Source of the DNA: a virus
Virus record (IMG/VR): IMGVR_UViG_3300019763_000006
Span: 1-64,000 of that record
Strand: one strand, 5' to 3'
Length of the DNA stretch: 64,000 bases
Shown: positions 23,818-56,769 of the stretch, one piece after another
Position numbering within the stretch: position 1 is the first letter of the stretch
How the letters are laid out: the number at the start of each line of letters is the position of its first letter
Translations under genes and position numbers: made by a program
The notes under the pieces: generated by a model
Seen by the model: the letters and a program-made list of their open reading frames with translations, nothing else
Told to the model about the DNA's origin: nothing
Database searches by the model: none

Positions 23818-25597
23818 CATAAGCAGTTTTTTAAATTATTCTAAAAAAAGTAGAGGAGTATTAGATAGCGATTATAATTTAAATCCTCAAAATAAAGAAT
23901 CTAGAAATACGAATAATAATCAAAAAGAGGGGTTTAATAAAGTTAGAGATAAATGGACTATGTTATGTAGTTATTTTAGAAGATATCCAGACCATTTTAT
24001 AGATTTTATACAGACAGATGACCCAAAAATTAATTTATTATTCTATCAAAGAATTTATTTGAGAATTATTTTTAGATATAGAAAAGTTTTTATAACCGCT
24101 ACAAGAGGTACATCAAAATCATTTACTATGAATTTAGCTTTTGTCTTATTATGCATTATGTATCCAAATAATAAATTATTTATAACCGCCCCAGGAAAGC
24201 AACAAGCTGCAAAAATTACACAAGAATGTTTAGATGATATTTTTGATTTTTTCCCATTATTAAGATTTGAGGTTAAAAAATATACAGATAATAAAGATTA
24301 TACGAAACTTGTATTTTATAACGGTAGTAAGTATGATGTAGTGCAGATGAAAGATTCATCAAGAGGTGGAAGAAGATTTGGTGGTGGAATTGAAGAAATT
24401 GCAGATAAAAAATTTGATGGAGATATATTAAATTCAGTTGTTATTCCTTTGATGGCTGGTAATAGATTATCTACTAAAAATGGTAAAATAGACCCAAATG
24501 AAATTCATAAGAGAGAAATATATATAACAACAGCTGGAACAAAACAACAGTTTGCATATGAAAAATGTTCAGAAATTATGACAGATATGCTTAATAGAAA
24601 ATCTAGCTTCTGTATAGGTAATTCATATGAACTTCCTGTGATGTTTGATAGGCTAGATGAAGACTTTATTGAAGAGAAAAGAGAATCTCCAACTTATAGT
24701 ATCTTAGATTTTATGAGGGAATACGAAAGTATATATACGGGTTCTAATTCAGATAGTTTAGTATCAGATGAGAAGTTAAGAAAGTCAAGAGTAGTAAAAT
24801 ATGCAGAATGGGAACATTGTGGAGATAAAGATGTAGACTATGTTTTAGCTTATGATGTATCAAGAAACCAAGGAGATGAAAATGCATTATGTGCTCTTGT
24901 GGTTATAAAAATAACAAGAGATGGAAATAAATATATTAAAGAAGTTGTGAATATTTTTTCATTAGAAGGTCAACATGATACTTGGCAAGCTAAATTTTTA
25001 AAAGATAAAGTAAGAGAATTTCAATCTAAAATTTTAGTAATAGATGCAAACGGATTAGGTTCTGGGGTGGTAGACCAATTGGTATTAGATTTAGATGATG
25101 GTAATCCTCCATATAAAGTAGTAAATGATAAAAAATTACAATGGAGAAAATATGAGTTGCCAGAAGGAATACCAATGGTATTCGCTTTAAAATCATCTAA
25201 TGTAGACACTAAAAATAGTGATATGATTAATCATTTTATGAAATTATTTAATAAATTAGACGTAGGATTATTAGTTTCTCCATATGAAGGATTAAAATAT
25301 CTAGAAAAAAAAAGAAAAAGAAAATTTTCAAAAGATGATAGTGAAGAACAAGTAATTGCGGAAATACCATATGTGAATACTAATAATTTAGTTGACGAAA
25401 TAATGAATTTAAGATACAAAGCTAAGGGTAACAATACAGAAGTTGAAAGAATATCTAGAAGTATACAGAAGGATAAATATTCTGCTTTATTGTATGGATT
25501 GTATTGGATATTTTTAGAAGAGCAAAAATTAAGAATTAGAAAATCAGCAGTTGATATATCTAAGTTTAAATCATGTGCCACTGCGGTTTCTTTTTAA
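23759..25597 (+). CDS. Terminase large subunit
   Basis: ATRGTSKSF Walker A variant, RGGR-IEE, ITTAG, nuclease LAYDVSR, IDANGLG, KDKYSA; true start probably near 23819. Confidence 0.9.
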   Translation: MLKKWLNLHEIHQKLKKVINISSFLNYSKKSRGVLDSDYNLNPQNKESRNTNNNQKEGFNKVRDKWTMLCSYFRRYPDHFIDFIQTDDPKINLLFYQRIYLRIIFRYRKVFITATRGTSKSFTMNLAFVLLCIMYPNNKLFITAPGKQQAAKITQECLDDIFDFFPLLRFEVKKYTDNKDYTKLVFYNGSKYDVVQMKDSSRGGRRFGGGIEEIADKKFDGDILNSVVIPLMAGNRLSTKNGKIDPNEIHKREIYITTAGTKQQFAYEKCSEIMTDMLNRKSSFCIGNSYELPVMFDRLDEDFIEEKRESPTYSILDFMREYESIYTGSNSDSLVSDEKLRKSRVVKYAEWEHCGDKDVDYVLAYDVSRNQGDENALCALVVIKITRDGNKYIKEVVNIFSLEGQHDTWQAKFLKDKVREFQSKILVIDANGLGSGVVDQLVLDLDDGNPPYKVVNDKKLQWRKYELPEGIPMVFALKSSNVDTKNSDMINHFMKLFNKLDVGLLVSPYEGLKYLEKKRKRKFSKDDSEEQVIAEIPYVNTNNLVDEIMNLRYKAKGNNTEVERISRSIQKDKYSALLYGLYWIFLEEQKLRIRKSAVDISKFKSCATAVSF

Positions 25598-27492: not shown

Positions 27493-28758
27493 TTGGATAA
27501 TAAGAAAGAATTAAGTTCAAGTAGAATAATACAGCTATCAGAAACTAATGATGGATTATACCTAGAATTAACAGGACAATTGTGTTATTTAGAAGATTAT
27601 AATTTAAATGGATTAAGACTTTTAAAAGGTGAGAATTTTGAAGAAAATTTAAAATCTTTAATTGACACTCCAGTTGTAGCAAAATATGTATGGAATGAAG
27701 ATAATGGTTCTGATTTTTCTGGACACGAAGCTTATAGAGATTGGTATACTGGAAATATTATGTTTGACACAGATGCTATAGGTGTACATCAAGATGTCTG
27801 GGTTGAAAACAAAGCTGTAAAACCAGTTTTTTCAGAAGAAGAAAAAGAATTACCTGTTATTATGTATAAAGCTAGAATATGGGCAGAAAGATTTCCAAAT
27901 TTTGCAAAAGTAATTAAAAAATTATATAGTGAAAATAATTTAGGTACTTCTTGGGAATTAATTCCAAATAAAATAACTGAAGAAACAAGTAATATTATAG
28001 GTATTACTAATCCTAGAAGTTCTGATGATTATGAATTTGTAGGGAATTGTTTATTAGGTTCTGATGTGATAGGTGCATACGAAGGGACGTCTAAAGTAAC
28101 TAATGTTGCGTCTGCAAATTTAGCACAGAAACAATTATCAGAAGCTTTAAATAAAGATTTGAAAAATAATTCAAAGAAAGAAAAAGAAATATCTCAAATT
28201 AAAGAAGGGAGCAAGGATATGGATAAAAAAATACAAGAATTAGAATCTAAACTTGCAGAAGCGGTTGCTAAACTACAGGAATATGAAGAAGCAGGTAAGG
28301 ATAAACAAATTTCAGAATTGGAAACTAAAGTTAAAGCTTTAGAAATTGAAAAATCTGAAACCGAAGAAAAATTTGTAAAAGCAACAGAAAATTTAGAAAC
28401 AGTTACTGCTGAACTAGAAGAATTAAAACCTTATAAAGCTCAAGTCGAGGCTATTAATTTAGAAAAAGCAGAGCATGAAAAGAAAGAAAAAATAATTGAA
28501 TTAACAGAGATGGTTAAAAAGGGTGGGTATATCACAGATAAAGATATTGAAACATCTGAAGAAATCAAAAAATTAATTCAAGATTGTAATGAAGATGCAT
28601 TAAAAGTTCTTAGAGCAGAAAAAATTATTGAAAAGCATGAATCAGAGCAATCACAACACGAAACAGAAACTTCAGAAGCAAAAACTAAATTACCAAAACA
28701 AGATTTTGCAGAGGAAACAAAAGTATCAAAAAATGCAATGGACACATTTTTAGTTTAA
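27493..28758 (+). CDS. Prohead protease-scaffold fusion
   Basis: N-terminal protease-like domain (FSGH, TSWE, GNCLLG) plus C-terminal acidic coiled coil; synteny. Confidence 0.8.
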   Translation: MDNKKELSSSRIIQLSETNDGLYLELTGQLCYLEDYNLNGLRLLKGENFEENLKSLIDTPVVAKYVWNEDNGSDFSGHEAYRDWYTGNIMFDTDAIGVHQDVWVENKAVKPVFSEEEKELPVIMYKARIWAERFPNFAKVIKKLYSENNLGTSWELIPNKITEETSNIIGITNPRSSDDYEFVGNCLLGSDVIGAYEGTSKVTNVASANLAQKQLSEALNKDLKNNSKKEKEISQIKEGSKDMDKKIQELESKLAEAVAKLQEYEEAGKDKQISELETKVKALEIEKSETEEKFVKATENLETVTAELEELKPYKAQVEAINLEKAEHEKKEKIIELTEMVKKGGYITDKDIETSEEIKKLIQDCNEDALKVLRAEKIIEKHESEQSQHETETSEAKTKLPKQDFAEETKVSKNAMDTFLV

Positions 28759-28775: not shown

Positions 28776-29240
28776 ATGTATAGACGATTAAAAGTAAATT
28801 CAGGAAAAAACAAAGATGCAACTTTTACAGCAGGTGAAGTTATGAAGAAAGGTATGTTTGTAGTTAAAGATTATGCAAATGGTGAAGTTAATCTTCCAGC
28901 AACTGCTACAGGTACAAATGTATTTATTGTAGATTTTGACCCAGATTATGTTGATTTTTTATCAGTTAGAACAAATGTTTCTGATTATGAAGATGTAATG
29001 AATGATATTGCAGACGGAGCAAAAGTAAGCTTGGAATTATTAGAAGTAGGAGAAGAATATGCAACAGACCAATTCGTGGCAACAGATATAGTAGTTGGTT
29101 CTGCTTTATCAGTAAATGATGCAGGTAAATTGGTTAAAAAAGCAACAGGTACATCTCCATTAGTAGCTACAGATATTGCTTATAACGATGCAGGACATAC
29201 TCTATTAGCATTTACTGTTACAGAGAATCCATTCGCATAA
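28776..29240 (+). CDS. Head decoration/cement protein
   Basis: 154 aa beta-rich protein between scaffold and MCP. Confidence 0.65.
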   Translation: MYRRLKVNSGKNKDATFTAGEVMKKGMFVVKDYANGEVNLPATATGTNVFIVDFDPDYVDFLSVRTNVSDYEDVMNDIADGAKVSLELLEVGEEYATDQFVATDIVVGSALSVNDAGKLVKKATGTSPLVATDIAYNDAGHTLLAFTVTENPFA

Positions 29241-38307: not shown

Positions 38308-39321
38308 ATGGCAAATAATAACGTAAAAATGAATACATTAAGGAATAGAGCTACTAAATCAGATGATATAACAGAAGAAATGTGGAATAAAGTAAATGAA
38401 TCAAGTAGATATTTTTATGATGAATATTTTAAATTGAATTCTAATTTAAGCCCAGATACATTGATACAATATAAAAGTGCATTAAGAATATTCTTTTATT
38501 ATATTTATGAAAATTGTAAAAATAAAAATATATGGAAGATAAAAAAGACAGATTTTATAAAATATGTTAATTTTTTAGAAAATAATGGGCTATCTTCAAG
38601 TGCGATTAAAGTTAAAAGATATGCTGTGAGTAGTTTTTGTAATACGATGGAAATTATATCAGAGGAAATAGAAGAAGACGATGATTATCCAGATATGTGT
38701 ACTTTTAGACATTTTGCAAGAGTCAAAATTGAGGTTGCGAAAAATCAAACTTACGAAAAAATTCCAATCACAAGAGCAGAATATGAAAAGGTTATGGAAA
38801 AATTAAAAGAAGATAATGATATATTAGCAATTGCTTATTGGGGAATAGCTTTTAATATTGGAGCAAGAAGAAGTGAAATGTTACAATTAAAAAGTGATTT
38901 AAGTATTAGGGAGAAACAAGATGGTAAATCTTTTTATTTAAGTGATAATATAAGATTAAAAGGTAAAGGTAAAACGGGTAAGGTTGAAAAATATATGATA
39001 AATGATGAAGCCATGGAGTATATTAAATTTGCAGTTGATAATAAAGGATATGATAGTGAATACATTTTTCAAAATAAAAATGGCAAACCTTTAAGTAGAG
39101 CATGGGTGAATAAAATGTTTAAAGATAAAATTTCACCGATATTAGGTAGAAGAAGTACTTCACATAATATGAAAAATAGTTGTGCTACTTATTTATTAGA
39201 AAACGGGTTCGATATCAAACTTGTAAGTAAATATGTTTGTCATCATGAGAGTGTAGATGTTACTATGAAGTTTTATGATTTAAGGAATAATGATGAAGAA
39301 ATAAATGAAATGTTTAAATAA
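38308..39321 (+). CDS. Tyrosine recombinase (integrase family, YomM-like position)
   Basis: SAM-like N-domain; GARRSE (R), KGKG (K), SHNMKNS (HxxK), HHES (H), KFYD (Y). Confidence 0.9.
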   Translation: MANNNVKMNTLRNRATKSDDITEEMWNKVNESSRYFYDEYFKLNSNLSPDTLIQYKSALRIFFYYIYENCKNKNIWKIKKTDFIKYVNFLENNGLSSSAIKVKRYAVSSFCNTMEIISEEIEEDDDYPDMCTFRHFARVKIEVAKNQTYEKIPITRAEYEKVMEKLKEDNDILAIAYWGIAFNIGARRSEMLQLKSDLSIREKQDGKSFYLSDNIRLKGKGKTGKVEKYMINDEAMEYIKFAVDNKGYDSEYIFQNKNGKPLSRAWVNKMFKDKISPILGRRSTSHNMKNSCATYLLENGFDIKLVSKYVCHHESVDVTMKFYDLRNNDEEINEMFK

Positions 39322-39851: not shown

Positions 39852-40236
39852 TAGCATGATAAATATATATTAATCAAGATTGTTATTTTATGACGAATTA
39901 ATTTATGGGGTCAACTTATAATCGTCAGCGGTTATAGGTAAGAATTATAATATATGTCATATGGCATGGTTGCTATAAACATAAACAAATTATAGTACTT
40001 TAAAAAATAGGTGTTTGTAACTTCAAAACAAACAGGTGAGGCACTTCATCTAGATAGTGAGAAATCTCAAGTGCCAAAATACATATTAAAAATATTTTTA
40101 AAAAAGCATTGACAATAATATGTGAATTATGACATACTTGAATAGAAAGTTATTTAAAATATTTTTTATAATTTTGTTTGATAATATAAACTTTGGATAG
40201 TCACTAATTATTAAACTAAAAAATATTATAAAAGTA

Positions 40237-40265
40237 TTGACAAAATTAATTTAATAATATATACT
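40237..40265 (+). promoter_or_regulatory. Sigma-A promoter
   Basis: TTGACA-17-TATACT upstream of the 208-aa gene. Confidence 0.75.
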
Positions 40266-40309
40266 AAAATAGTAAAGATTAAAAATTAAATTTTAAAGGA
40301 GAGAGCAAA

Positions 40310-40936
40310 ATGGAAAAAATGACATTACACAAAGCATTAGGAGAATTAAAAATATTAGATTCAAGGATTGAAAAATCAATTAATAATGGAGTATTTATCA
40401 CATCAAATAAGAACTCTAATGAAAAAATTGATGGAATGAGCATTAAAGATTATGAAGATAAAATTATTAAATCTTCATATGATAAAGTAACTGATTTGAT
40501 TAGTAGAAGAAGAAAAATCAAAGATGCATTGACTCATAAAAATTCAGAAATTGAATTTGAAGTGAATAATGAAAAATTTACAATCGCAACTGCTATTGAT
40601 AGAAAAAATAATCTAAATAAAGAGAAATTGTTTTTAAATCAATTAAAAAATCAATATTCAAATACGACAAGTATGGTTAATAGAGTTAATTTGCACTTAG
40701 AAGAAGAAGCTTTAAATGAAGCTCAACGCTTTTTTGAAAACAAAGATAATGTAGATGTTAAAAAAGTAAAAGCTTTACAAGATGATTATATAGAAAATAG
40801 AAAAATGAATCTAATAGACCCATTAGGAATTAGAGAAAAAATTGAAGAATTAGAATTAAGTATCCAAGTTTTTGAAAGAGAAATTGATTATAAATTATCT
40901 GAATTAAATGCAATAAATTTTATTGAAATAGAATAA
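40310..40936 (+). CDS. Coiled-coil protein (possibly DIP1984-like) linked to a downstream structured RNA
   Basis: MTLHKALGELKILDSRIEK...TIATAIDRK...LIDPLG...IDYKLSELNAINFIEI; mostly helical heptad pattern. Confidence 0.75.
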   Translation: MEKMTLHKALGELKILDSRIEKSINNGVFITSNKNSNEKIDGMSIKDYEDKIIKSSYDKVTDLISRRRKIKDALTHKNSEIEFEVNNEKFTIATAIDRKNNLNKEKLFLNQLKNQYSNTTSMVNRVNLHLEEEALNEAQRFFENKDNVDVKKVKALQDDYIENRKMNLIDPLGIREKIEELELSIQVFEREIDYKLSELNAINFIEIE

Positions 40937-40946
40937 AACAATTAAT

Positions 40947-41298
40947 AAGATTATATCCATCATTAAACGAAACCATAAACAATATACATTTAGATTGGTT
41001 TTATGCAATTACTAACTAAATTAAAAAATAAAAGAAATTGCATACTATGCTTATAGTAAACATTAATAAAAAACAAAAATATTTGGTATAATACCATTTG
41101 GTATAATACCATAAGTATAAAAGTTTAAAACTGTAAAAATAAAAGTTTAAAATTGTAAAAATAAAAGTTTAAATTGTGTAAAGATTAAATTGTAAAAATT
41201 AATGTTATAAAAATATATAAAATCTTACACCTACAGTTTGTAGTATGTATATTTTGACTCATGGGTTTCTGGTAAGCTGTTTAGTGGTGGATAATCTT
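40947..41298 (+). ncRNA. Predicted ~350-nt structured RNA with internal UAAA repeat array
   Basis: Nested long-range stems 40947-40968/41279-41298, 40969-40976/41261-41269, 40981-40989/41245-41253; internal helices; G.U wobbles; no ORF. Confidence 0.7.
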
Positions 41299-41309
41299 TT
41301 AAGTAATAT

Positions 41310-41385
41310 AAGGGTGTAGTTCAGAGAGTAGAACATCGGTCTCCAAAATCGAATGTCGTAGGTTAAAGTCCTACCACCCTTGCCA
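41310..41385 (+). tRNA. trnW: tRNA-Trp(CCA)
   Basis: Acceptor AAGGGTG/CACCCTT, discriminator G, encoded CCA; anticodon loop CTCCAAA; T-arm GTAGG-TTAAAGT-CCTAC. Confidence 0.9.
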
Positions 41386-41835
41386 AAATTAAATTATGGC
41401 ATTCTAAAAGATGTAAGTCCATTTATAAAAATATATCACATGAATTACAACAAAGAACTTAGAACAAAAATGTTATGTTAGAATTGTCTACATTTCCTTG
41501 AGCAAGAAGTGTAGCGTACATAAAAGTTAAATTTTATTGATAAAATTAGATTTTTAGATGTTGAAATTTCAACGTTTATAAAAATGATAAAATTAAATAT
41601 TTGGTTTGCAGACATATAAACACTATGTTTATGCAAGGGCGGTGTAGATATGGGTTATGAAAGTATATTGTAAGATATAATGAGTAATAATGGCAATATT
41701 GAGGTAGGATTAATTTTAGATGTAGAGATAGGTTGAGAAGTCATGAGCTTAACTGACAAGGTGTCAACTTTCGAGGCATTTTCTCTATATTTATCTTGGT
41801 GAGAAGTAGATATACGGAAGGTATGTGATTTTATA

Positions 41836-43362
41836 GTGTGTGAAGACAAGAAAAAATTAATAAAATTTGAGGATATTAATAATATTGATTTAAGCAAATT
41901 TCCAAAATGGAATATACAACAAGTAGAAGAATTAAAAGATTTTATAATAAAAGATTCTGAACATATTGAAAAAGTTTGCGATATTATAAATAAAACACCA
42001 AGAGAAGTAGCATTTTTAATAAGTGATTTAGTATTAAATTTAAAATCATCAAATTTTAGAGTTAGATTTAATTTAAAATGTGATATTTGTGGCAAGATAG
42101 TAAATCGAACTGTTTTTAGAGTAAAGAGGTCTAAAAATATATATTGTAGTAGTGAATGTTCAACTAAAAGTCATATGAATGGTCGATATGTAAAATGTAT
42201 GAATTGCGGAAAAATGGTTTATAAAAATCCTACAAATCAAGCAAAATCTAAAAATTTATTTTGTAGCAAAAAATGTGCAGATATTTATAATTCAAAACAA
42301 AAAATAACTAGAGTTACCCTTATTTGTAAATTTTGTGGGAAAGAATATGAAGTTAGTAAATACAAAGAATTTACATCTAAATATTGTTCTAATGAATGTA
42401 GACATAAATATGAATCAAAATATAATATTGGGATTAATAATAAAAGATTTAGTTCAGAAATGGTAAAATGTGACTATTGTGGAGAATATCATTTGAAATC
42501 TCAATGCCATTTAAAAGAAGGTAAAAAGAATTTTTGTAGTAATATATGTAGACAAAAATGGTTTAGTGAAGTATATTCGCAAAATGAAGATTATAAAGAA
42601 TATAGACGTAAAAATGCAGTAAAAATACTAGAAGATGGACTGATTCCACAAGTAAATACATCTATACAATTAAAAATAAATAAATTACTATCTGATTTAA
42701 ATATAAACTATATTAATGAGAAAGGGTTTAAATATTATTCAATTGATAATTATTTATACGAGTATAACTTATGTATAGAGGTTATGGGAACATATTGGCA
42801 TACTGACCATAGAAAATATAAAGAAATTAATTATTCAAAACAAGTTGATAGAATAATTAAAGATAAGGCAAAACAATCTTATATAACAAACCATTATAAT
42901 ACTCATATTTTATATTTATGGGAATATGATATAGATAATTATTATAATGAATGCAAGAAATTAATTTTGGAATTTGTTAAAAATAAAGGTATTTTAAATA
43001 AATATCATAGCTTTAATTATACAAATGATATAAACGGTGTAGCATATATGAATATGGAGATAAAAAGTGTTAATAAAATAGTCAATACTACTGTTAAAAA
43101 AGAGAGATGTAAAAAAGATGAATCAAAATGGATAAAATATAAATGTGATTATTGTGGTAAAGAATGTGAAGAATTAATATCACATTATAAAAAGAAAGAT
43201 AATCATTGTTGTTCAAGAAATTGTGCATATAAACTTAAAACTTTTAATCATTCTATAAGAACTAAATGTTCAAAATGTGGTAGGACAATTTTTATTAAAG
43301 AAAAACAATATAAAACATACAAAAAATATGTTTGTAAAGATAATATTTTTAATAAAAATTAA
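41836..43362 (+). CDS. Free-standing homing-type endonuclease: multiple zinc fingers plus Vsr/DUF559-like nuclease domain
   Basis: About six CxxC...(Y/F/C)CSxxC-type repeats; YSIDNY...IEVMGTYWH...DKAK...LYLWEYDI. Confidence 0.8.
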   Translation: MCEDKKKLIKFEDINNIDLSKFPKWNIQQVEELKDFIIKDSEHIEKVCDIINKTPREVAFLISDLVLNLKSSNFRVRFNLKCDICGKIVNRTVFRVKRSKNIYCSSECSTKSHMNGRYVKCMNCGKMVYKNPTNQAKSKNLFCSKKCADIYNSKQKITRVTLICKFCGKEYEVSKYKEFTSKYCSNECRHKYESKYNIGINNKRFSSEMVKCDYCGEYHLKSQCHLKEGKKNFCSNICRQKWFSEVYSQNEDYKEYRRKNAVKILEDGLIPQVNTSIQLKINKLLSDLNINYINEKGFKYYSIDNYLYEYNLCIEVMGTYWHTDHRKYKEINYSKQVDRIIKDKAKQSYITNHYNTHILYLWEYDIDNYYNECKKLILEFVKNKGILNKYHSFNYTNDINGVAYMNMEIKSVNKIVNTTVKKERCKKDESKWIKYKCDYCGKECEELISHYKKKDNHCCSRNCAYKLKTFNHSIRTKCSKCGRTIFIKEKQYKTYKKYVCKDNIFNKN

Positions 43363-44516: not shown

Positions 44517-47500
44517 TTGGCTGATGAAAAGATAGATGTTAAAGTCAAACTTGGACTTGATAGTACATCGGAACAACAGGTAAAAAAAGATGTTTCAAGA
44601 GTTACAAAAGAATTAGAAAATCAAGTTAATTATGAAAAACAAAGAAAACAAGTAATTAACAATATCGCAAAAGAATTGAACACTACATCTTCAATCATAG
44701 AAAAATCTTTAAAATTAACAGAAAGAGAAAGAAAAGAACACGAAAAGGTTTTACAATTATCAAAAAAAAATGAAATATCTGAAAAGAAGCAATTAGAAGA
44801 TTTAGAGTTAAAAATAAGATTATTTAAAGAGTTACAAACTAGAAATATTACCTCTTTACAATCAGGTAATTTAAAAGGATTATATGATAAAAGTGCTTTA
44901 GATTCTTTTCAAAAATCTTTATCTGAATTAAGTATAAATACTCCAGATTTAGAAAAGAAAATGAAATTATTAGGTTCTGAATTTAAAAATATAAAAAATG
45001 GAGCTCAAAATAGTTCAAAAGCCATATCAGTTGCTAGTAAAGAAACTGCTTCGTTTGCAACTGGTATTAAAGATGCTGCAATTAAATTTGGATTATGGTC
45101 TGCGGTAACTGTTGCTTATTATGGAGCTATAAGAGCAATAGGCGAAGGTATAGATACTATTAGAGAATTAGATACCGCTCTGGTTGAATTAAAAAAAGTT
45201 ACTGATGAGACAGATGTTACTTATCAAAAATTTACTGATACTGCATTTCAAATGGCAGAAGCGACAGGAAGTTCTGGTGTAGATGCTATTAAGGCAACAA
45301 GTGCATTTGCTAGAATGAATTTTACATTAGAAGAGTCTATTAAATTAGGCGAAAAGGCTTTAATTTTACAAAATATTGGTGATGGTATAAATACCATAGA
45401 AGAAGCAACGACAAGTTTGGTTGCAATAATGAAAGGATTTGAGCTTCAAGCAAAAGATTCTGAACATGTTATAGATGGATTGAATGAAGTATCAAATAGA
45501 TTTGCGGTAAATACAAGTCAATTATCAAATGGTTTAATGAGAATATCTGCAACATCTAATCAATCTAATAATAGTTTAGATGAAACGATTGGTTTAATGA
45601 CTGGTGCGGTTGAAATCTTACAAAATTGGGAGAAGGCATCTTCTGGAATAAATGTTTTAACGCAAAGGATTAGAGGGGTAAGTGAAGAAGGAGAAAATCT
45701 ACTCCCAACACTACAGAAAACATTTGATAGTTTGAAATTAATTAGTGGGGAAACAGTTAGAATACCTATAGAAGACGCTAATGGAGATTTAAGAAGTACT
45801 TATGAAATTTTGCAAGATTTAAGTAAAATATACCCAAATTTAGAATCTAAAACAAAACAATATGTAGGCTCTTTAGTTGCTGGAAAAAGACAAATTACAG
45901 TATTAGAAGCAATATTGCAAAATTTTGAGAATGTAGAAAAAGCGACCCAAGCAAGCATAGACTCAGCTGGAAGTGCTAGAGTAGAACAAGAGAAGTATTT
46001 AGATAGTATCGAAGGTAAAATGAAAATTTTAGATAAAACAACACAAGAATTTTGGAGTCATTTTATTAGTTCTGATACTGTAAAAAGTACTATAGAAGCT
46101 TTTACTAAATTTATTGAAATATTTGATAGATTAACACAATCAATTGGAGAAACAAATACGGTTTTATTGGCATTAACATTAGCAATATTAATTTTTAAAA
46201 AAGAAGCTTTGATAGGTGGTATAAAGGCTTTATATAATTTTTCTTTAAATTTATTAGGTATTGCAACAAGTGCAGAGATTGCGGCTGGGGCTGTAAATGG
46301 ATTTAATTTATCTGCTAGTGGATTAACATTTGGTTTAAGTTTATTAATACCAATGATATTACAAATAATAGATTCTAATAAAAAATTAGAAACAAGTTTG
46401 CAAGACACGAATACAGAAATTGAAAAACAAATAGATAATTTTGATAATTTAACAGAGAAAGAAAAAGAATTATTAGAATTAAGATTAAGAAATAAATTAA
46501 TTGATGAGGGTTACAGTAATAAGTCAGATGTTGAAAAAAGAATTGATGATATCAACCAGGAGTTAATAAGATTTGAAAAAATATCACAAAAGTTTAGCAA
46601 GATTGGAGAAACAGGTAAAGAGTCAGAATATAATCGTAGGATTGAAAATAGACAAAAAGAGTTAGATAAACTCCATGAAATAATGAAAACTTTTGAATTA
46701 TTAGAAAAAGTGGAGATGCATGAATCTAATAAATTAACTAATGCTTACACTAATCAAAGAGATGCTTTAAATTCTTTAAAAGATAAAGTTAGTGATACAT
46801 CAGATGAGATAGAAGAACTTACAGACAAAGAAAAAGAACATCAAGAAATGATGCAATTCTCTATAGAACAATTAGATACTCTTGCTCAAAAATACCCTGA
46901 ATATTCTGAAAAAGTTATAGAATATCAAATTAAAGAAACTGAAGCTGTAATTATTGAAGCTCAAAAAAGATTAAGTGCAATGGAAATTGAGTCTTCTGCT
47001 ATAGATAGAGTTATGCAAAAATACTATGGCATGAAAGGTGTTGCGGACGATGCTACTCTTAATATGAGTAGGGCGATTTTGAATACAATAAATAGTGGTA
47101 CATTTAAAGACGTTATTGATACTAGTGCATTAGATGGGGCAAAAAAAGATTTACAAGATTTACTAGACCTTCAAGAAAAATATTTTGGTAAAGACAAAAA
47201 ATCATCATCTAAAACTAAAGAAGCAACTGCATACTATAAAGAGCTTGCAAAAATTGCTGAAATAGAGAATAAAATTGCTATTTTAAAGACGAAGCAATCT
47301 TTGACTGATAATGAGCGTGAAAAGATAAAATTAATCAGACAACAAGTTGAAGAAACTAAAAATCTACAAGAGGCACAACATGTGTTAAATGAAGCTAGAA
47401 GAAGAGATTTAGCTAATCTTAAAGTGGGTAGCGAGGAATATACTAAACTTGAAAAGTCTATAGAGTCTACTTCTGGTGCATGGTGGACAGCTCAAAAGGC

Positions 47501-50500
47501 TATTCAAGATTATAATAAAGAAATTGATAATTTAATTAAAGAAATTAGAGATGATATAAAAGAAACAGATAAAGAATTAGCAAAAATCATTGAAGAACGT
47601 AGAATTGAAAATTTTAATAATCAAATCAAAATTACTGTTGAAAATATTAAAGATTTTGCGGATGAATTAAATAATGCTAGTAAATATGCTGATAATTTAT
47701 TAAGTGTGGGAGATTTAGAAGGTGGTTTTGAGGCGTTAACAAAACAATTAAATTCTCAATTACAAGTCACAAACGAATTAAATAGAGAATACGCTACACT
47801 ACAAACTTTAATACAACAAGCACAATCTTCAGAAGAAAAATCAAAACTAGCAGATAATATGGAAAAAGTTAGTGATTCTATCACTACTGCACAATTAAAT
47901 GCACAAAAATTAGTAACAGAAATTGGAAAATTAAAAATTGATGTTATTTCAAAACATTTTGGAGATATTACTTCTGAAATTGAAGAACAAATTAATTTAT
48001 TAGATTCTCAATTAGTACCACTTATGGAAGGGTTTTTAAGTGGATTAGATATTGATTTAGGTGAAAATTTTATTGGAAATCAATTAGATTTTGGTGGATT
48101 ACAAGATGCATTTAAAAATATTTTTGACAATGAAAAAAATAGAATTGAAGAAATAAATAGTTTAAGAAGAGAAGCTAATAGTCAAGAAATTAGCGAAACT
48201 AAAGCTAGTTATAATAAAGAAATACAAGATTTAATGAATCACAGGGCGGATTTAGAACGTAGATTAATGTTATCTTATGGAGCAGAAGAAAACTTAGCTA
48301 CTCAACACTATCAAAAAATGTTGGACTTTGTTGTACAATTCGCAAATGGTAGTGAAGAAGCTTTACAATCAATGTTGTCTGCGACTGGGAATTTAGGTGG
48401 TTCGGTATCTAGTGGTAATTATAGTTCTGCAAATCAAAATGTTTTAAATGATTATTACCAAAGATTCCCAAATAGTTTAATTCCTCCAGAAATTATTTTA
48501 CAAGCAAATACTAATTCTATGCAACCAAAAGGCATGCAATTAAATGTCCCATCTCAATTAAAAAGCACAAGTTCTGACATTAATGATTACATGGATGAAA
48601 CTGGGGCAGTAATATTTGAAAAAATAATGGAATTAGTTGAAAAACATGGTATAGACGATAAATTTTACGAAAAAATATTTGGATATTCTGGAACTGAAAC
48701 TAATCCTTTTGTAGATTTTGATGATGATGCTTTAGAAGGCGATTTTTATGCAATAGCTAAAAATATTCAATCTTATCTAGTTAATTCTACATCTAAAAAT
48801 CTCGAAGAAACAATTAATAATTGGATAGATAATATATTCAAAACAAATCTATTTACAGGTGTGAGTCATAATAGATTAGATAAAGATTATCTTGTAAAAA
48901 GGCTTTTTGGGGAAAGAGTGGATAAAGGGACTGGTGGAGAAGTATTAGAAAGTAAAGGCTTGTCTGCTGTTCAAGGTAAATTAGCAAGTGAATATGGTTT
49001 TAGTGTAGAATCTGCTAAAAATTTATTGGGTACTGATTTTAGAGAAATTGAAGATGTTGGAGATTTATTAAGGAATTTTACTGCATGGACAAAATCAATA
49101 CAAGACTTATCTATTGATGAGCGTGTGGCGGAATTAAATTTAGCAAAACAAACTACAGGTGAGATTGTAAACGAAATGCAACAACTACAGATGAATTTGC
49201 CTAAATTTGAATTTGATTTTGACATGAAAGAATATCAATCCAATATTAAAGATATTCAAGATGGATTACAAAATACATTTGAAGAAATCAGAGTATCTGG
49301 AAAATCAGTCGAAGAACAATTATTAGCTATTAATGAAGTGAGTAAAAATGCAAGTATTAAAATATCTGAACAACAAATTGAACTAAATCAAGCATTAATA
49401 AATAGTCAAAATGAATATATTAAAGCTCTTGAAGAAGAATATTTAGCAAATGAAGATAATGCCGAATTACAGGCAATTATTCAATCTAAATTAAATGATG
49501 CTTATAATCAAAGATTATCTTATGAACAACAATTAAGGAATTCAATTAAACAGAGATATGAAACTGAATTTAAGTTTATGGATAAAGAATTAAGTATGAT
49601 AGAAAGTACAAATTCTTTAAGGGAAAAAGAATTAAAACTTGCAGAGTTACGAGGGGAAACAGCTGATTTAGATAGTAATACTTTAGCGAATGAAAAAGAA
49701 AAACAAAATCTTTTAAAAGAGAATGTTGAAACTTTAGAGAGCCAAATGGCACAATTAGAAGTAGGTTCTTTTGAGTGGAATTTATTAAATGAACAATTAT
49801 TAAAATATAAAAATTCTTTATTGGATTCAGAAATTGCTGTAGAAGAAATTAATAATAAATTAAAAGAACAAGAAATAGACAGAATTAATGATGAATTAGA
49901 TGAAGAATTAAGAATATATAAAGAACTAAAAAATGCTCAAATTAAAAGACTAGAAGCAATGAAAAAAGGTAATACTGAAGCTGATAAAGAAGCTGAATTT
50001 ATTGAAAAAATAGCAGATGCGGAGCAAAAGGTTTTAAATATTCGTGAAAAATTAGCTAATTTAAGAAAAGAAAGAAATATTAAAGTATTTACAGGTAAAG
50101 GTTTTGAATTTCAAGCAAATCAAAAAGAAATTAAAAATACTACTCTTGAATTGCAAGAAGCAAATAAAGATTTGTCGGAAAGTAGAAAAGAATTTGACAC
50201 GTATAAATTTAATAGAGATATTGATTTAAGAATTCAAGCTATAGAAAAAGAAATTCAAAAAGAAGAGAATAATGTTCTAGCTCTTAAAAAACTAGCAGAA
50301 GTGGGAAAAATTACTAATGATATGTATAAAGAAGGGGCGGAAATTATTACAGGAAATCTAGTGCCTGCTAATGAACTTTTGATTGATACATTAGAATTAA
50401 CTGGACAAAAATTATTAGATAATATTGAGAAATTTAAAGATATGGAGAATATCTTTGGTAGAATCGGTAATTTATCTGATATATCAATAAGCAATAGTCC

Positions 50501-50660
50501 AGCAGTAATACCAATTCCTAGTAGAATTGGTGGAAGTGAAGGGATGTATAAAGGTGATAATATTGTTATTAAAAATATTGATGTTAAGCATCCTAATGCA
50601 GATTTTAATGATGTTATCAAAGAAGTTCATAATAAAGTAACAATTTATAAACATAAATAA
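44517..50660 (+). CDS. Tail tape measure protein
   Basis: 2047 aa helical; TP901-type core (ELDTALVELKKVT, IDGLNEVSNRFA, LRSTYEIL). Confidence 0.92.
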   Translation: MADEKIDVKVKLGLDSTSEQQVKKDVSRVTKELENQVNYEKQRKQVINNIAKELNTTSSIIEKSLKLTERERKEHEKVLQLSKKNEISEKKQLEDLELKIRLFKELQTRNITSLQSGNLKGLYDKSALDSFQKSLSELSINTPDLEKKMKLLGSEFKNIKNGAQNSSKAISVASKETASFATGIKDAAIKFGLWSAVTVAYYGAIRAIGEGIDTIRELDTALVELKKVTDETDVTYQKFTDTAFQMAEATGSSGVDAIKATSAFARMNFTLEESIKLGEKALILQNIGDGINTIEEATTSLVAIMKGFELQAKDSEHVIDGLNEVSNRFAVNTSQLSNGLMRISATSNQSNNSLDETIGLMTGAVEILQNWEKASSGINVLTQRIRGVSEEGENLLPTLQKTFDSLKLISGETVRIPIEDANGDLRSTYEILQDLSKIYPNLESKTKQYVGSLVAGKRQITVLEAILQNFENVEKATQASIDSAGSARVEQEKYLDSIEGKMKILDKTTQEFWSHFISSDTVKSTIEAFTKFIEIFDRLTQSIGETNTVLLALTLAILIFKKEALIGGIKALYNFSLNLLGIATSAEIAAGAVNGFNLSASGLTFGLSLLIPMILQIIDSNKKLETSLQDTNTEIEKQIDNFDNLTEKEKELLELRLRNKLIDEGYSNKSDVEKRIDDINQELIRFEKISQKFSKIGETGKESEYNRRIENRQKELDKLHEIMKTFELLEKVEMHESNKLTNAYTNQRDALNSLKDKVSDTSDEIEELTDKEKEHQEMMQFSIEQLDTLAQKYPEYSEKVIEYQIKETEAVIIEAQKRLSAMEIESSAIDRVMQKYYGMKGVADDATLNMSRAILNTINSGTFKDVIDTSALDGAKKDLQDLLDLQEKYFGKDKKSSSKTKEATAYYKELAKIAEIENKIAILKTKQSLTDNEREKIKLIRQQVEETKNLQEAQHVLNEARRRDLANLKVGSEEYTKLEKSIESTSGAWWTAQKAIQDYNKEIDNLIKEIRDDIKETDKELAKIIEERRIENFNNQIKITVENIKDFADELNNASKYADNLLSVGDLEGGFEALTKQLNSQLQVTNELNREYATLQTLIQQAQSSEEKSKLADNMEKVSDSITTAQLNAQKLVTEIGKLKIDVISKHFGDITSEIEEQINLLDSQLVPLMEGFLSGLDIDLGENFIGNQLDFGGLQDAFKNIFDNEKNRIEEINSLRREANSQEISETKASYNKEIQDLMNHRADLERRLMLSYGAEENLATQHYQKMLDFVVQFANGSEEALQSMLSATGNLGGSVSSGNYSSANQNVLNDYYQRFPNSLIPPEIILQANTNSMQPKGMQLNVPSQLKSTSSDINDYMDETGAVIFEKIMELVEKHGIDDKFYEKIFGYSGTETNPFVDFDDDALEGDFYAIAKNIQSYLVNSTSKNLEETINNWIDNIFKTNLFTGVSHNRLDKDYLVKRLFGERVDKGTGGEVLESKGLSAVQGKLASEYGFSVESAKNLLGTDFREIEDVGDLLRNFTAWTKSIQDLSIDERVAELNLAKQTTGEIVNEMQQLQMNLPKFEFDFDMKEYQSNIKDIQDGLQNTFEEIRVSGKSVEEQLLAINEVSKNASIKISEQQIELNQALINSQNEYIKALEEEYLANEDNAELQAIIQSKLNDAYNQRLSYEQQLRNSIKQRYETEFKFMDKELSMIESTNSLREKELKLAELRGETADLDSNTLANEKEKQNLLKENVETLESQMAQLEVGSFEWNLLNEQLLKYKNSLLDSEIAVEEINNKLKEQEIDRINDELDEELRIYKELKNAQIKRLEAMKKGNTEADKEAEFIEKIADAEQKVLNIREKLANLRKERNIKVFTGKGFEFQANQKEIKNTTLELQEANKDLSESRKEFDTYKFNRDIDLRIQAIEKEIQKEENNVLALKKLAEVGKITNDMYKEGAEIITGNLVPANELLIDTLELTGQKLLDNIEKFKDMENIFGRIGNLSDISISNSPAVIPIPSRIGGSEGMYKGDNIVIKNIDVKHPNADFNDVIKEVHNKVTIYKHK

Positions 50661-56657: not shown

Positions 56658-56699
56658 CAGTAAATAAAAGTAAGGTTTTAATGACTTTTTGAAAATTTA

Positions 56700-56721
56700 A
56701 AACGTTGAAATTTCAACGTTT
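56700..56721. promoter_or_regulatory. Perfect 22-bp palindrome, member of a dispersed family
   Basis: AAACGTTGAAATTTCAACGTTT; variants at 9414, 12007, 18344, 41556. Confidence 0.7.
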
Positions 56722-56769
56722 GTAAGCATGGTAAAAATTGTAAAAAGTTAATTTTAATAATAGAAAGGT

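What the first reader, a model, noticed from the sequence alone, without database searches (positions are those of the whole stretch)
40237..41298. Candidate new ribonucleoprotein system: coiled-coil protein plus a closed structured RNA displaying a UAAA repeat array
Seen: own sigma-A promoter, 208-aa coiled-coil gene, then 10 nt after the stop a ~350-nt ORF-less region whose ends pair in three nested helices: AAGATTAT-AT-CCATCATTAAAC with GTTTAGTGGTGGATAATCTT (two G.U), GAAACCAT with ATGGGTTTC, and AATATACAT with ATGTATATT. Inside are TATGCAATT/AATTGCATA, a doubled TGGTATAATACCA hairpin, CTACA/TGTAG, and a predicted unpaired ~100-nt tract (41118-41222) of ~14 TAA(A) units spaced 6-10 nt, including a 22-nt unit TAAAAGTTTAAAA(C/T)TGTAAAAA repeated ~2.5 times. 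G.U pairs favour RNA-level structure, and processing of the tRNA 11 nt downstream could define the 3' end. Inference: the protein oligomerises on the repeat tract (TRAP-like ring or filament, RNA as scaffold or counter), or the pair is an RNA-antitoxin/sponge module. I do not recognise it as a described family.
Basis: partly seen in the sequence, partly recalled or inferred. Interest (0 to 1): 0.85.

Follow-up and report, generated by a model that had tools for sequence, protein, structure and literature searches.

The report
Conserved phage RNA with partner protein
The gene-free stretch encodes a real, intricately folded RNA of about 350 bases that follows one uncharacterised 208-residue protein gene in all 160 related phage and bacterial loci examined; databases hold only its first 86 bases, and its job is unknown.

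Summary
Window 40947-41298 is a diverged member of a large RNA family 340-480 nt long. Only the first 86 nt of this family are catalogued, as Rfam RAGATH-27, function unknown.

- **Structure:** on 28 full-length relatives, 43 base pairs in 7 helices are 93.8% paired, against 33-44% when partners are slid. 38 of 43 pairs show compensatory changes. G.U outnumbers A.C by 102 to 19, so the + strand RNA is the selected form.
- **Repeats:** the "UAAA repeats" are a conserved array of 7+5 heptads (YAAAG-NN).
- **Linkage to the gene:** a model of the 3' core hits once, downstream of the protein gene, in 80 of 80 viral loci and 68 of 80 bacterial loci. The other 12 bacterial loci show the same layout by eye. 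These include syntenic chromosomal copies in Lysinibacillus.
- **Protein:** no Pfam family, acidic, 3,585 representative clusters.

Protein-RNA binding is not shown. The closest working analogue is the 2026 VIPR repeat-RNA system, but its defining features are not met. This scan found the same family earlier on other DNA (e1-4039112).

The parts
40237..40265 (+). Sigma-70-type promoter-like site, TTGACA-17-TATACT.
   Evidence: 11 of 12 matches. Such sites are not enriched in this AT-rich stretch, and function is not shown.
40296..40303 (+). Ribosome-binding site, AAGGAGAG.
   Evidence: Read from the sequence. It ends 6 nt before the ATG.
40310..40936 (+). Gene for the 208-aa partner protein (phrog_1491 family; no Pfam or NCBIfam family).
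   Evidence: PHROG E-value 7.9e-48 over the full length. 3,585 representative clusters at E <= 0.001.
40947..41298 (+).
   Evidence: It aligns end to end with 27 relatives.
40956..41042 (+). 5' domain, a diverged RAGATH-27 (RF03100) region.
   Evidence: 27 bits, E 0.5, model positions 1-86 of 86. Relatives score above threshold at the same place.
40956..40968 (+). P1, 5' strand. It pairs with 41279-41291.
   Evidence: 13 pairs, 11 with compensatory changes, 97.8% of cells paired.
40973..40974 (+). P2 core, 5' strand. It pairs with 41264-41265.
   Evidence: All 3 family pairs show compensatory changes. In the window 2 of 3 pair, plus window-specific extensions.
40981..40987 (+). P3, 5' strand. 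It pairs with 41247-41253.
   Evidence: 7 pairs, 6 with compensatory changes, 94.9% paired.
40988..40993 (+). Pseudoknot strand. It pairs with 41016-41021, inside the hairpin loop.
   Evidence: 9 family pairs, all with compensatory changes, 83.3% paired. Six of the nine form one run in the window.
41002..41044 (+). RAGATH-27 hairpin: a 9-bp stem (41002-41010 with 41036-41044) and a 25-nt loop ending AAAGA.
   Evidence: for the sequence; the Rfam consensus is shown.
41045..41112 (+). Variable linker, including the doubled TGGTATAATACCA.
   Evidence: Pairwise identity is 0.47 even among the closest relatives.
41113..41222 (+). Array of A-rich heptad-type repeats, 14 units.
   Evidence: In the family it is 7 units at a 7-nt period, a 16-18 nt gap, then 5 units.
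41203..41297 (+). Conserved 3' core. P4 is 41224-41228 with 41272-41276. P5 is 41234-41236 with 41269-41271. P6 is weak here. The core also carries the 3' strands of P3, P2 and P1.
   Evidence: model R1 scores 63.8 bits, E 1.5e-8.
41310..41385 (+). tRNA-Trp (anticodon CCA), 11 nt after the RNA.
   Evidence: In 28 of 51 non-redundant viral loci a tRNA starts within 100 nt after the core.

Best explanation
The 208-aa gene and the 352 nt after it are one two-part module: a protein and a dedicated structured RNA.

**Transcription (inferred).** They are most likely made as one transcript from the promoter-like site at 40237. There is no room for a promoter and no terminator between them. RNase P cutting at the tRNA-Trp 11 nt downstream probably sets the RNA's 3' end.

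**Fold (shown by covariation).**
- The 5' strand forms three long-range helices (P1, P2, P3) with the 3' core.
- These helices cross the core's own helices P4-P6, making a pseudoknot.
- A second pseudoknot ties the 5' strand to the loop of the RAGATH-27 hairpin.
- Between the two ends lie a free-to-vary linker and a length-conserved array of about 12 heptads (YAAAG plus 2 variable bases). RNAalifold leaves this array unpaired in the 28-sequence alignment.

**Function (inferred, not shown).** Several copies of the protein bind the heptad array, one per repeat, with the pseudoknotted core as a fixed cap. The result would be a ribonucleoprotein particle. Its cellular role is unknown. Its setting in phage tRNA islands, and as a stand-alone unit in Lysinibacillus chromosomes, points to RNA or tRNA handling, or to conflict between mobile elements.
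For: **The RNA is real and on the + strand**
- 43 pairs are 93.8% paired, against 33-44% for slid partners. 38 of 43 pairs show changes on both sides. The covariation score is 0.748, against 0.08-0.17 for slid partners and 0.279 for shuffles, and 0 of 500 shuffles reach it.
- G.U outnumbers A.C by 102 to 19 cells.
- In near-identical strains, 41287 G>A turns a U.G pair of P1 into U-A (low depth).

**Linkage to the protein gene**
- The 3'-core model R1 gives exactly one hit, on the + strand and downstream of the gene, in 80 of 80 IMG/VR loci. It gives no other hit in 914 kb searched on both strands.
- R1 hits 68 of 80 bacterial loci. The other 12 show the same layout by eye.
- All four cultured phages checked have it: phiCD211 and Bcp1 by model (E 7e-4 and 3e-3), pVp-1 and KIL1 by eye.
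- In the reverse direction, 30 loci fetched by an RNA pattern and confirmed by R1 were checked. 25 have the gene 250-583 nt upstream. 4 are cut by the locus edge.

**One transcription unit**
- In Bcp1, pVp-1, KIL1 and Lysinibacillus a terminator-like hairpin followed by a U-run comes right after the RNA (read from the sequence); none lies between gene and RNA.

**The array is constrained**
- The array segment is 109-115 nt in 21 of 28 RNAs, with a modal spacing of 7 nt.
- Constant positions stay 0.89-0.99 identical across all divergence bins, while spacer positions drift from 0.85 to 0.37.

**A precedent exists**
- In VIPR, a phage protein co-purifies with an RNA made of tandem short repeats followed by a pseudoknotted tail (bioRxiv 10.64898/2026.04.26.720920; Results read in full).
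Against:
- The protein is acidic (median pI 5.67, net charge -3.5). It matches no known RNA-binding family.
- One record, L146, carries the heptads and 3' core with no detectable protein gene. That record is 62,976 bp and estimated 49% complete.
- Adjacency could reflect co-transcription alone.
- In the window the array is partly a recent 22-nt tandem duplication, and P6 pairs at only 1 of 3 positions.
- A later check of this scan's earlier finding on the same family recorded that part of it fell. I could not see which part.
Confidence: 0.55

Rival explanations
1. The RNA works without the protein, like the ROOL and GOLLD RNAs of phage tRNA islands. It folds, and perhaps multimerises, on its own or binds a host factor through the A-rich array. 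The upstream gene merely shares its transcript.
For: - ROOL and GOLLD are large pseudoknotted phage RNAs, often near tRNA islands. No protein partner is known for ROOL, and both form RNA-only cages. tRNAs sometimes sit in the GOLLD linker (bioRxiv 10.1101/2024.12.08.627333, passages seen).
- This family also sits near tRNAs: 40 of 51 non-redundant loci hold a tRNA.
- Some members carry tRNA-like or YrlA-like inserts in the linker.
- L146 lacks the protein gene.
- The protein is acidic.
Against: - The gene-RNA pairing is seen in all 160 loci examined, across Gram-positive and Gram-negative phages and in chromosomes.
- It survives moves into quite different gene neighbourhoods.
- Shared transcription alone does not explain that.
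Confidence: 0.2
2. The RNA is a cis-acting 3' untranslated region. It stabilises or autoregulates the mRNA of the upstream gene and has no function as a separate molecule.
For: - It starts 10 nt after the stop codon.
- No promoter or terminator lies between gene and RNA.
- In several relatives a terminator-like hairpin with a U-run follows it (read from the sequence).
Against: - A stabiliser would not need 340-480 nt with two pseudoknots, invariant single-stranded blocks and a length-conserved 12-unit repeat array, kept across hosts from Clostridia to Pseudomonas.
- tRNAs that abut the 3' end imply that the RNA is cut away from downstream RNA.
Confidence: 0.1
3. It is a repeat-code guide particle of the VIPR kind. 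Protein subunits hold the constant YAAAG bases, and the variable bases between them read a gapped target in DNA or RNA of a competing element.
For: - The general layout matches VIPR: a small phage protein (208 aa here, 195 aa for the probable SUSP1 Vipr), then tandem short repeats with constant and variable positions, then a conserved pseudoknotted tail.
- Spacer positions are the fastest-evolving part of the structured RNA.
- The module occurs in phages and in chromosomes.
Against: - The period is 7 nt with an A-rich constant part, not the 5-nt YNNGG unit.
- There is one RNA per locus, not several or an array.
- Spacers are 85% identical among close relatives, not hypervariable.
- In the window the spacers repeat, because the array is a 22-nt duplication.
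- No sequence similarity to either SUSP1 VIPR-locus protein was found (hhalign probability 0.1%). SUSP1 also lacks this protein family.
Confidence: 0.08
4. It is a DNA-level element such as a miniature transposon with terminal inverted repeats, a replication origin with iterons, or an attachment site next to the integrase and the tRNA. In that case it is not an RNA at all.
For: - The ends are an inverted repeat, and both strands fold about equally well (z -3.87 and -3.68).
- There are direct repeats.
- An integrase gene lies 1.6 kb upstream and a tRNA 11 nt downstream.
Against: - No second copy exists in the 88-kb record.
- Pairs change by compensation and use G.U on the + strand only: 102 G.U against 19 A.C cells.
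- The helices form pseudoknots.
- The element keeps a fixed place and direction after one gene in all 160 loci examined.
Confidence: 0.02

Closest known systems
RAGATH-27 RNA motif (Rfam RF03100, 86 nt, type sRNA, function unknown)
   Same: - It is the same RNA family. Bona fide matches lie 20-25 nt after the stop of homologues of this gene (L044, L011, L017, L016, L219).
- The window's 40956-41042 matches the whole model weakly and shares its CGAAA block, its hairpin and its loop ending AAAGA.
   Different: - The Rfam model is only the first quarter of the RNA. It marks the first 46 nt as unpaired. Here they are shown to pair with a 3' core 250-400 nt away and with the hairpin loop.
- I saw no protein partner recorded for it. 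The name occurs nowhere in the main text of the 2017 paper I searched (PMC5737381), and supplements were closed.
- The window scores below the family cut-off.
VIPR systems (Vipr protein plus vrRNA; bioRxiv 10.64898/2026.04.26.720920, 2026)
   Same: - Both are mostly phage-encoded, with some chromosomal copies.
- In both, a small protein gene is flanked by long non-coding DNA.
- In both, the RNA has 9-16 (here about 12) short tandem repeats that alternate constant and variable bases, followed by a conserved 3' tail with a pseudoknot.
   Different: - The repeat is 5 nt (YNNGG) there, and 7 nt and A-rich here.
- vrRNAs are about 100 nt and often several per locus. Here there is one RNA of 340-480 nt, with an extra 5' domain that locks onto the tail.
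- The NN bases are hypervariable there and moderately conserved here.
- No sequence similarity between the proteins was detected. The fold was not testable.
ROOL and GOLLD large ornate phage RNAs
   Same: - All are large pseudoknotted RNAs of phages and prophages, often beside tRNA genes, with unknown function.
- GOLLD has a conserved 3' part, a variable part and sometimes tRNAs in its linker.
   Different: - The window matches no ROOL or GOLLD model, even at E <= 10.
- No protein partner is known for ROOL. This RNA has a fixed neighbouring gene and a heptad array.
Bacterial Y RNAs (YrlA, RF02553) with the Ro60 orthologue Rsr
   Same: - In both, an RNA closed by pairing of its 5' and 3' ends is encoded next to its protein partner.
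- Two relatives carry a YrlA-like tRNA-mimic module in the linker: L283 at 49.2 bits and L016 at 36.3 bits, both below the cut-off of 69.
   Different: - The window has no such module.
- The protein is 208 aa with no family match, not a Ro/TROVE protein of roughly 500 aa (that size is recalled).
- Y RNAs have no heptad array.
TRAP with its (G/U)AG repeat RNA; type III toxin-antitoxin RNAs (ToxIN). Both descriptions are recalled, not taken from a call.
   Same: In both, a repeated short RNA motif is bound by an oligomeric protein, one unit per subunit.
   Different: - No TRAP or ToxN family match was found.
- The repeat unit, its period and the gene order all differ. In ToxIN the repeats precede the toxin gene and are about 36 nt long.

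Membership tests
RAGATH-27 (Rfam RF03100) | Score at or above the curated gathering cut-off (76.1 bits). | tested here: not met
   Window 40956-41042 scores 27 bits, E 0.5, over model positions 1-86 of 86. It is not listed at the gathering threshold.
RAGATH-27 (Rfam RF03100) | Conserved 5' block with CGAAAAC, followed by a hairpin whose long loop ends AAAGAA. | tested here: met
   The window has CGAAAC, a 9-bp hairpin (41002-41010 with 41036-41044) and a 25-nt loop ending AAAGA. It aligns column for column with members that score above threshold.
RAGATH-27 (Rfam RF03100) | Homology of the rest of the molecule to RNAs that carry a bona fide RAGATH-27. | tested here: met
   The 3'-core model R1 was built from 28 RNAs, the window's own among them. 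It scores 63.8 bits (E 1.5e-8) on window 41203-41297. All helices but P6 are kept in the window.
VIPR (Vipr + vrRNA) | Vipr protein with a RAMP/RRM core, G-loop and thumb. | not testable with these tools
By sequence, hhalign against the two SUSP1 locus proteins gives probability 0.1%. The authors say RAMPs share little sequence similarity, so this is not decisive.
VIPR (Vipr + vrRNA) | vrRNA of YNNGG-type 5-nt tandem repeats (or NNNGG, YNNNG, NNNNG). | tested here: not met
   The period is 7 nt and the constant part is YAAAG.
VIPR (Vipr + vrRNA) | Variable bases hypervariable among near-identical systems. | tested here: not met
   Spacer identity is 0.85 in the 8 pairs whose 3' core is at least 90% identical.
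VIPR (Vipr + vrRNA) | Conserved structured 3' tail after the repeats. | tested here: met
   A 95-nt core with P4-P6 and the pseudoknotted P2 and P3 follows the array.
ROOL / GOLLD | Match to the Rfam covariance models. | tested here: not met
   No such match was found in the window at the gathering threshold, or in 40200-41900 at E <= 10.
Y RNA (YrlA) with Rsr | A tRNA-like module, and a neighbouring Ro/TROVE gene. | tested here: not met
   No YrlA match was found in window 40200-41900. None of the nine proteins encoded around the site matches a Ro or TROVE Pfam family. Partial YrlA matches occur only in relatives L283 and L016.
Type III toxin-antitoxin (ToxIN-like) or other known defence system | Toxin of a known family, with a repeat array upstream of it. 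| tested here: not met
   PADLOC gives 0 families for the window protein and for the Lysinibacillus homologue. The repeats lie downstream of the gene and have a 7-nt period.
DIP1984 / DUF6847 (PDB 3kdq) | Significant profile match. | tested here: inconclusive
   - PDB 3kdq: E 0.011 with profile A1 and 0.11 with A4, over the most conserved motif.
- 1 of 44 members hits PF20935 (E 0.012), and 1 of 44 hits NF038048 (E 0.025).
- The nearest Atlas cluster that has a Pfam family scores 0.87.

The most novel reading that the evidence does not exclude
The module is a new class of repeat-reading ribonucleoprotein. About twelve copies of a small protein with a possible beta-alpha-beta-beta-alpha-beta order of elements (my reading of the sequence, not a prediction) line up on a 7-nt repeat array held by a pseudoknotted cap. 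The particle would recognise another nucleic acid or tRNA-like substrate, as a 7-nt-period cousin of the VIPR code or a Y-RNA-like tRNA-handling particle. Phages and some Bacillales chromosomes would both use it.
Probability: 0.12. Interest if true: 0.9.

Novelty: new variant of a known kind. Interest (0 to 1): 0.78.

Why it matters
- **A catalogued orphan turns out to be a fragment.** An 86-nt Rfam motif is the front end of a widespread RNA of 340-480 nt with two pseudoknots and a heptad array.
- **It gains a candidate partner.** The neighbouring protein family is large (3,585 representative clusters), has no Pfam family and has no known function.
- **The pair is very widely spread.** It occurs in Herelleviridae, T5-like, Pseudomonas, Klebsiella and Clostridioides phages, in gut and microbial-mat viromes, and as a syntenic chromosomal locus in Lysinibacillus. 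The question of what the RNA does therefore becomes testable in cultured systems.
- **It may bear on two current topics.** If the protein reads the repeats, this would be a second repeat-RNA/protein architecture beside the 2026 VIPR systems. It would also add a protein-linked member to the set of large phage RNAs found near tRNA islands.

Tried and rejected
- **Second copy in the same phage (transposon idea).** None was found. The next best match is 34 nt at E 0.0013.
- **Close relatives through a single-protein scan of IMG/VR.** 24 stretches matched a pattern, but none was confirmed.
- **Expression.** No RNA holder was listed for window 40200-41400. All 12 listed runs are DNA contigs from microbial-mat metagenomes. 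Laying four of them gave only a few strain differences at low depth.
- **Protein atlas.** It returned only unnamed viral clusters and holds no model.
- **PDB by sequence.** Only a weak hit to 3kdq.
- **Family libraries.** Pfam, NCBIfam and PADLOC gave no family.
- **tRNA-Lys idea.** I considered that the AAAG units pair with tRNA-Lys anticodon loops. I dropped it because GC-richer relatives keep only YAA (L112).
- **Internal promoter idea.** I considered that the doubled TGGTATAAT is an internal promoter. It lies in the non-conserved linker and is absent from relatives.
- **The pattern scan was noisy.** Of the 80 loci I examined, 46 had neither an R1 hit nor the gene. Examples such as L102 are coding sequence. 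I examined the 80 that were listed (L093-L172), not the other 39.
- **Alignment limit.** The MAFFT alignment A2 is out of register in the RAGATH-27 hairpin. That stem was therefore not counted. It rests on the Rfam model and on the window's own perfect 9-bp stem.
- **Literature.**
  - 'RAGATH-27' gave 0 papers.
  - 'RAGATH' + phage + tRNA gave 5 papers, none on this motif by title or abstract.
  - A four-term search on phage non-coding RNAs and tRNA clusters gave nothing on this family. It did turn up the VIPR preprint.
  - The main text of PMC5737381 contains no 'RAGATH'.
  - Supplements were closed. The original description of the motif may sit there. The VIPR tables listing 667 systems may show whether this family was counted.
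Full report
**What is in the window.** The window is the first 64 kb of an 88,325-bp linear IMG/VR virus record, estimated 69% complete. It is 20-31% G+C. It encodes a tailed phage, with a terminase large subunit at 23759-25597 and a 2,047-aa tape-measure protein at 44517-50660. The finding sits between structural genes, in a small island:
- a tyrosine integrase at 38308-39321;
- the 208-aa ORF at 40310-40936;
- 373 nt without any ORF of 40 aa or more on the + strand;
- tRNA-Trp at 41310-41385;
- a 508-aa protein with zinc-finger motifs and HNH-like matches at 41836-43362.

A TTGACA-17-TATACT site lies at 40237-40265, and no terminator-like site lies between 39300 and 41900.

**Folding the window alone.** The + strand of 40937-41309 folds to -70.1 kcal/mol (z = -3.87; 0 of 100 shuffles fold as well). 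The - strand does nearly as well, at -63.2 kcal/mol and z = -3.68. On the window alone, an inverted DNA repeat could therefore not be told from an RNA. Tandem Repeats Finder confirms the 22-nt unit (2.6 copies, 97% matches, 41117-41173) and the doubled 15-nt unit at 41081-41112. The record holds no second copy of the element.

**The protein family.**
- The ORF matches PHROG 1491 over its full length (E 7.9e-48; labelled 'tail fiber protein', an untested label).
- It matches no Pfam, NCBIfam or PADLOC family.
- By tblastn it has relatives in 156 GenBank phage records, 147 of them covering at least 80% of the query and all below 60% identity. They include Bacillus, Pseudomonas, Klebsiella, Aeromonas, Vibrio and Clostridioides phages.
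- A 44-sequence profile finds 3,585 representative clusters at E <= 0.001, of which 1,530 are at E <= 1e-30. The 150 best are 204-228 aa long.
- The proteins are acidic: median pI 5.67, and the window's is 5.64.
- Three weak signals point to the orphan DIP1984/DUF6847 family and PDB 3kdq. They are a lead only.

**The non-coding stretch goes with the gene.**
- In 70 of the 80 best IMG/VR loci, no ORF of 60 aa or more starts within 280 nt after the stop codon.
- In four annotated phages the annotators left gaps after the gene: 636 nt in phiCD211, 367 nt in pVp-1, 478 nt in Bcp1 and 465 nt in KIL1.
- Rfam gives RAGATH-27 (RF03100) above its cut-off about 25 nt after the stop in L044, L011 and L017, among the 15 sources searched. 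It does so later in L219 and L016.
- At the same relative place, window 40956-41042 gives a full-length but weak match: 27 bits, E 0.5.
- The Rfam consensus marks its first 46 nt as unpaired.

**The full RNA.** I paired the strand just before the CGAAAA block with DNA 200-520 nt downstream. This gave a closing helix in 74 of 80 loci and in the window; one of the 74, L022, was spurious. RNA lengths were 324-463 nt. I then aligned 28 non-redundant full-length RNAs, including the window (A2).

RNAalifold recovered the closing helix, a pseudoknot-forming helix in the 5' domain and two helices in the 3' core. 23 of its 28 pairs showed compensatory changes.

I added the two further long-range helices and one core helix by inspection, and counted all 43 pairs:
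- 93.8% of cells are paired, against 33.0-44.2% when 3' partners are slid by 1-3 columns.
- 38 pairs show changes on both sides, against 19-24 for slid partners.
- The covariation score is 0.748, against 0.080-0.173 for slid partners and 0.279 +/- 0.013 for shuffles. 0 of 500 shuffles reach it.
- Every helix has compensatory pairs: P1 11 of 13, P2 3 of 3, P3 6 of 7, the 5' pseudoknot 9 of 9, P4 4 of 5, P5 3 of 3 and P6 2 of 3.

Because part of the structure was read off these same sequences, the slid control flatters it somewhat. The size of the effect and the many pair types per column leave little doubt.

G.U or U.G cells number 102, and A.C or C.A cells 19. In P1 the counts are 48 and 2. 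The + strand transcript is therefore the selected form.

P2 and P3 cross P4, so the 5' strand threads into the 3' core as a pseudoknot. The window keeps every helix except P6, where 1 of 3 positions pairs. In near-identical strains from other microbial-mat samples, 41287 G>A turns a U.G pair of P1 into U-A (single low-depth contigs).

**The repeats.** It has seven A-rich units at a 7-nt period, a 16-18 nt gap (a short hairpin in some members), then five more units. The array runs into a near-invariant AAAAUCC at the start of the core.
- The array segment is 109-115 nt in 21 of 28 RNAs. The other 7 carry one inserted hairpin.
- Constant positions stay 0.89-0.99 identical at all divergence levels.
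- Spacer positions fall from 0.85 to 0.37.
- The helices fall from 0.94 to 0.44.
- The linker is 0.47 or less throughout.
- GC-richer relatives keep only YAA in each unit (L112).

**Strength of the linkage.** I built a covariance model of the 95-nt 3' core (R1).
- It hits exactly once per locus, on the + strand and downstream of the gene, in 80 of 80 IMG/VR loci and in the window (63.8 bits, E 1.5e-8).
- It also hits phiCD211 (E 7e-4) and Bcp1 (E 3e-3).
- It gives no other hit in 914 kb searched on both strands.
- pVp-1 and KIL1 are missed, but by eye they show the same closing helix, AAAUCC...GCUG core and A-rich units.

In the reverse direction, I fetched loci with a pattern made only from the RNA core. 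The scan returned 119 stretches, and I examined the 80 that were listed.
- 30 of the 80 were R1-positive at E <= 0.01.
- 25 of those 30 have the gene ending 250-583 nt upstream of the core.
- 4 are cut by the edge of the held DNA. Two of these lie on contigs already known to carry the gene.
- 1 (L146) has no match to the protein anywhere in its 62,976-bp record, which is estimated 49% complete.

In bacterial genomes, 161 of 223 candidate stretches encode a relative of the protein. Of the best 80, 68 have an R1 hit downstream at E <= 0.1. The other 12 show the same layout by eye.

Sixteen Lysinibacillus loci share the same flanking genes, DUF1963 and an MFS transporter. Twelve of these also share a tRNA(U5)-methyltransferase-like gene. 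No tRNA lies nearby in the two Lysinibacillus loci checked. In L250 a promoter-proximal gene is followed by the RNA and then a terminator-like hairpin with a U-run (read from the sequence). There the module is a resident chromosomal unit rather than part of an evident prophage.

**Setting.** Of 51 non-redundant viral loci, 40 hold at least one tRNA. In 28 a + strand tRNA starts within 100 nt after the core, and in 6 within 30 nt. The window's tRNA-Trp follows after 11 nt. Bcp1, pVp-1, KIL1 and Lysinibacillus instead have a terminator-like hairpin with a U-run right after the RNA (read from the sequence). Either arrangement would give the RNA a defined 3' end, and nothing separates it from the gene.

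**What it most likely is.**
- Shown: a conserved, pseudoknotted + strand RNA, inherited together with one protein gene.
- Inferred: the two form a particle in which protein copies sit on the heptad array.

I hold that inference at about even odds. The linkage survives transfer between very different genomes and neighbourhoods, and the array's constant bases and its length are conserved while the spacers drift. That pattern fits a row of identical binding sites. A working precedent now exists in VIPR. Against the inference stand the acidic protein, the absence of any binding evidence, and L146.

**Comparison with VIPR.** I read the abstract, the whole Results, the type-classification paragraph and some matched passages of the preprint. 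In VIPR a phage protein co-purifies with RNAs of about 100 nt. These RNAs have 9-16 YNNGG repeats and a pseudoknotted 3' tail, and the NN bases read DNA by a gapped code.

I located the SUSP1 locus by its repeats at 27.6-29.3 kb. SUSP1 lacks the window's protein family. Its two locus proteins show no similarity to that family. The 7-nt A-rich unit, the single RNA per locus and the 85% spacer identity among close relatives fail VIPR's defining features. The window's own array is partly a 22-nt duplication, which suits a ruler or binding row better than a code. The system may work somewhat like VIPR, but I do not file it as a member.

**Novelty and prior notice.** Rfam holds only the 86-nt front end. 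My literature searches found no description of the full RNA or of its protein partner. Supplements that might bear on this were closed. This scan noted the same family earlier on another genome (e1-4039112), after I had already seen the RAGATH-27 link. That note's lead to bacterial chromosomes was tested here and holds. A later check of that note recorded that part of it fell, and I could not see which part. Expression remains unshown here too.

Noticed in passing
L016:5791-5853; L283:1718-1776; L255:3213-3276; L146:1461-1530: In some relatives the variable linker of the RNA holds a tRNA-like module. L283 and L016 give partial matches to the Y-RNA-like family YrlA (49.2 and 36.3 bits; cut-off 69; model positions 23-85 of 114). 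L255 gives a tRNA-model match lacking the acceptor ends. L146 gives a full tRNA-model match. ARAGORN calls none of these a tRNA. A T-loop-like motif occurs in only 4 of 57 unique viral RNAs.
   Followed up: partly
L250:2486-3462 (Lysinibacillus sp. RS11 chromosome) and 15 other Lysinibacillus loci: The gene, the RNA and a terminator-like hairpin with a U-run form a stand-alone unit between an MFS transporter gene and a tRNA(U5)-methyltransferase-like gene. The flanks are syntenic across 16 Lysinibacillus loci. No tRNA and no evident phage gene lies in the 5.6 kb held.
   Followed up: partly
L146 (IMGVR_UViG_3300029059_000003): This locus has the heptad array and the 3' core (R1 65.6 bits) but no match to the protein family anywhere in the 62,976-bp record. 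A tRNA and an unrelated ORF lie where the 5' domain should be.
   Followed up: partly
window 41836-43362: A 508-aa protein with many CxxC pairs gives weak matches to HNH and homing-endonuclease PHROGs (best E 1.8e-12). It sits right after the tRNA and looks like a mobile nuclease inserted in the structural region.
   Followed up: no
window 41516-41592 and 56660-56736: A 77-nt direct repeat, 74% identical, is centred on the palindrome GTTGAAATTTCAAC. Each copy lies upstream of a + strand gene, so it may be a shared regulatory site.
   Followed up: no
window 38308-39321: A tyrosine integrase gene (Pfam Phage_integrase, E 3e-16) lies inside the late structural region. It is 2 kb upstream of the tRNA-Trp.
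   Followed up: no
window 15667-18246: An 859-aa protein matches PHROG 8308, of unknown function, over its full length (E 3.9e-264). I did not test that.
   Followed up: no
L011:4654-4826 (- strand); L016:7714-7784 and 8424-8491: Other Rfam orphan RNAs lie in the same islands. FuFi-1 (66.7 bits) is just upstream of the gene in L011, and int-alpA RNAs (48.6 and 45.1 bits) lie downstream in L016.
   Followed up: no
L301 (SUSP1 NC_028808.2:26800-30200): YNNGG repeat tracts at record positions 27619-27969 and 29165-29239 (- strand) flank two hypothetical genes of 195 and 146 aa. This fits the published description of the SUSP1 VIPR locus.
   Followed up: partly
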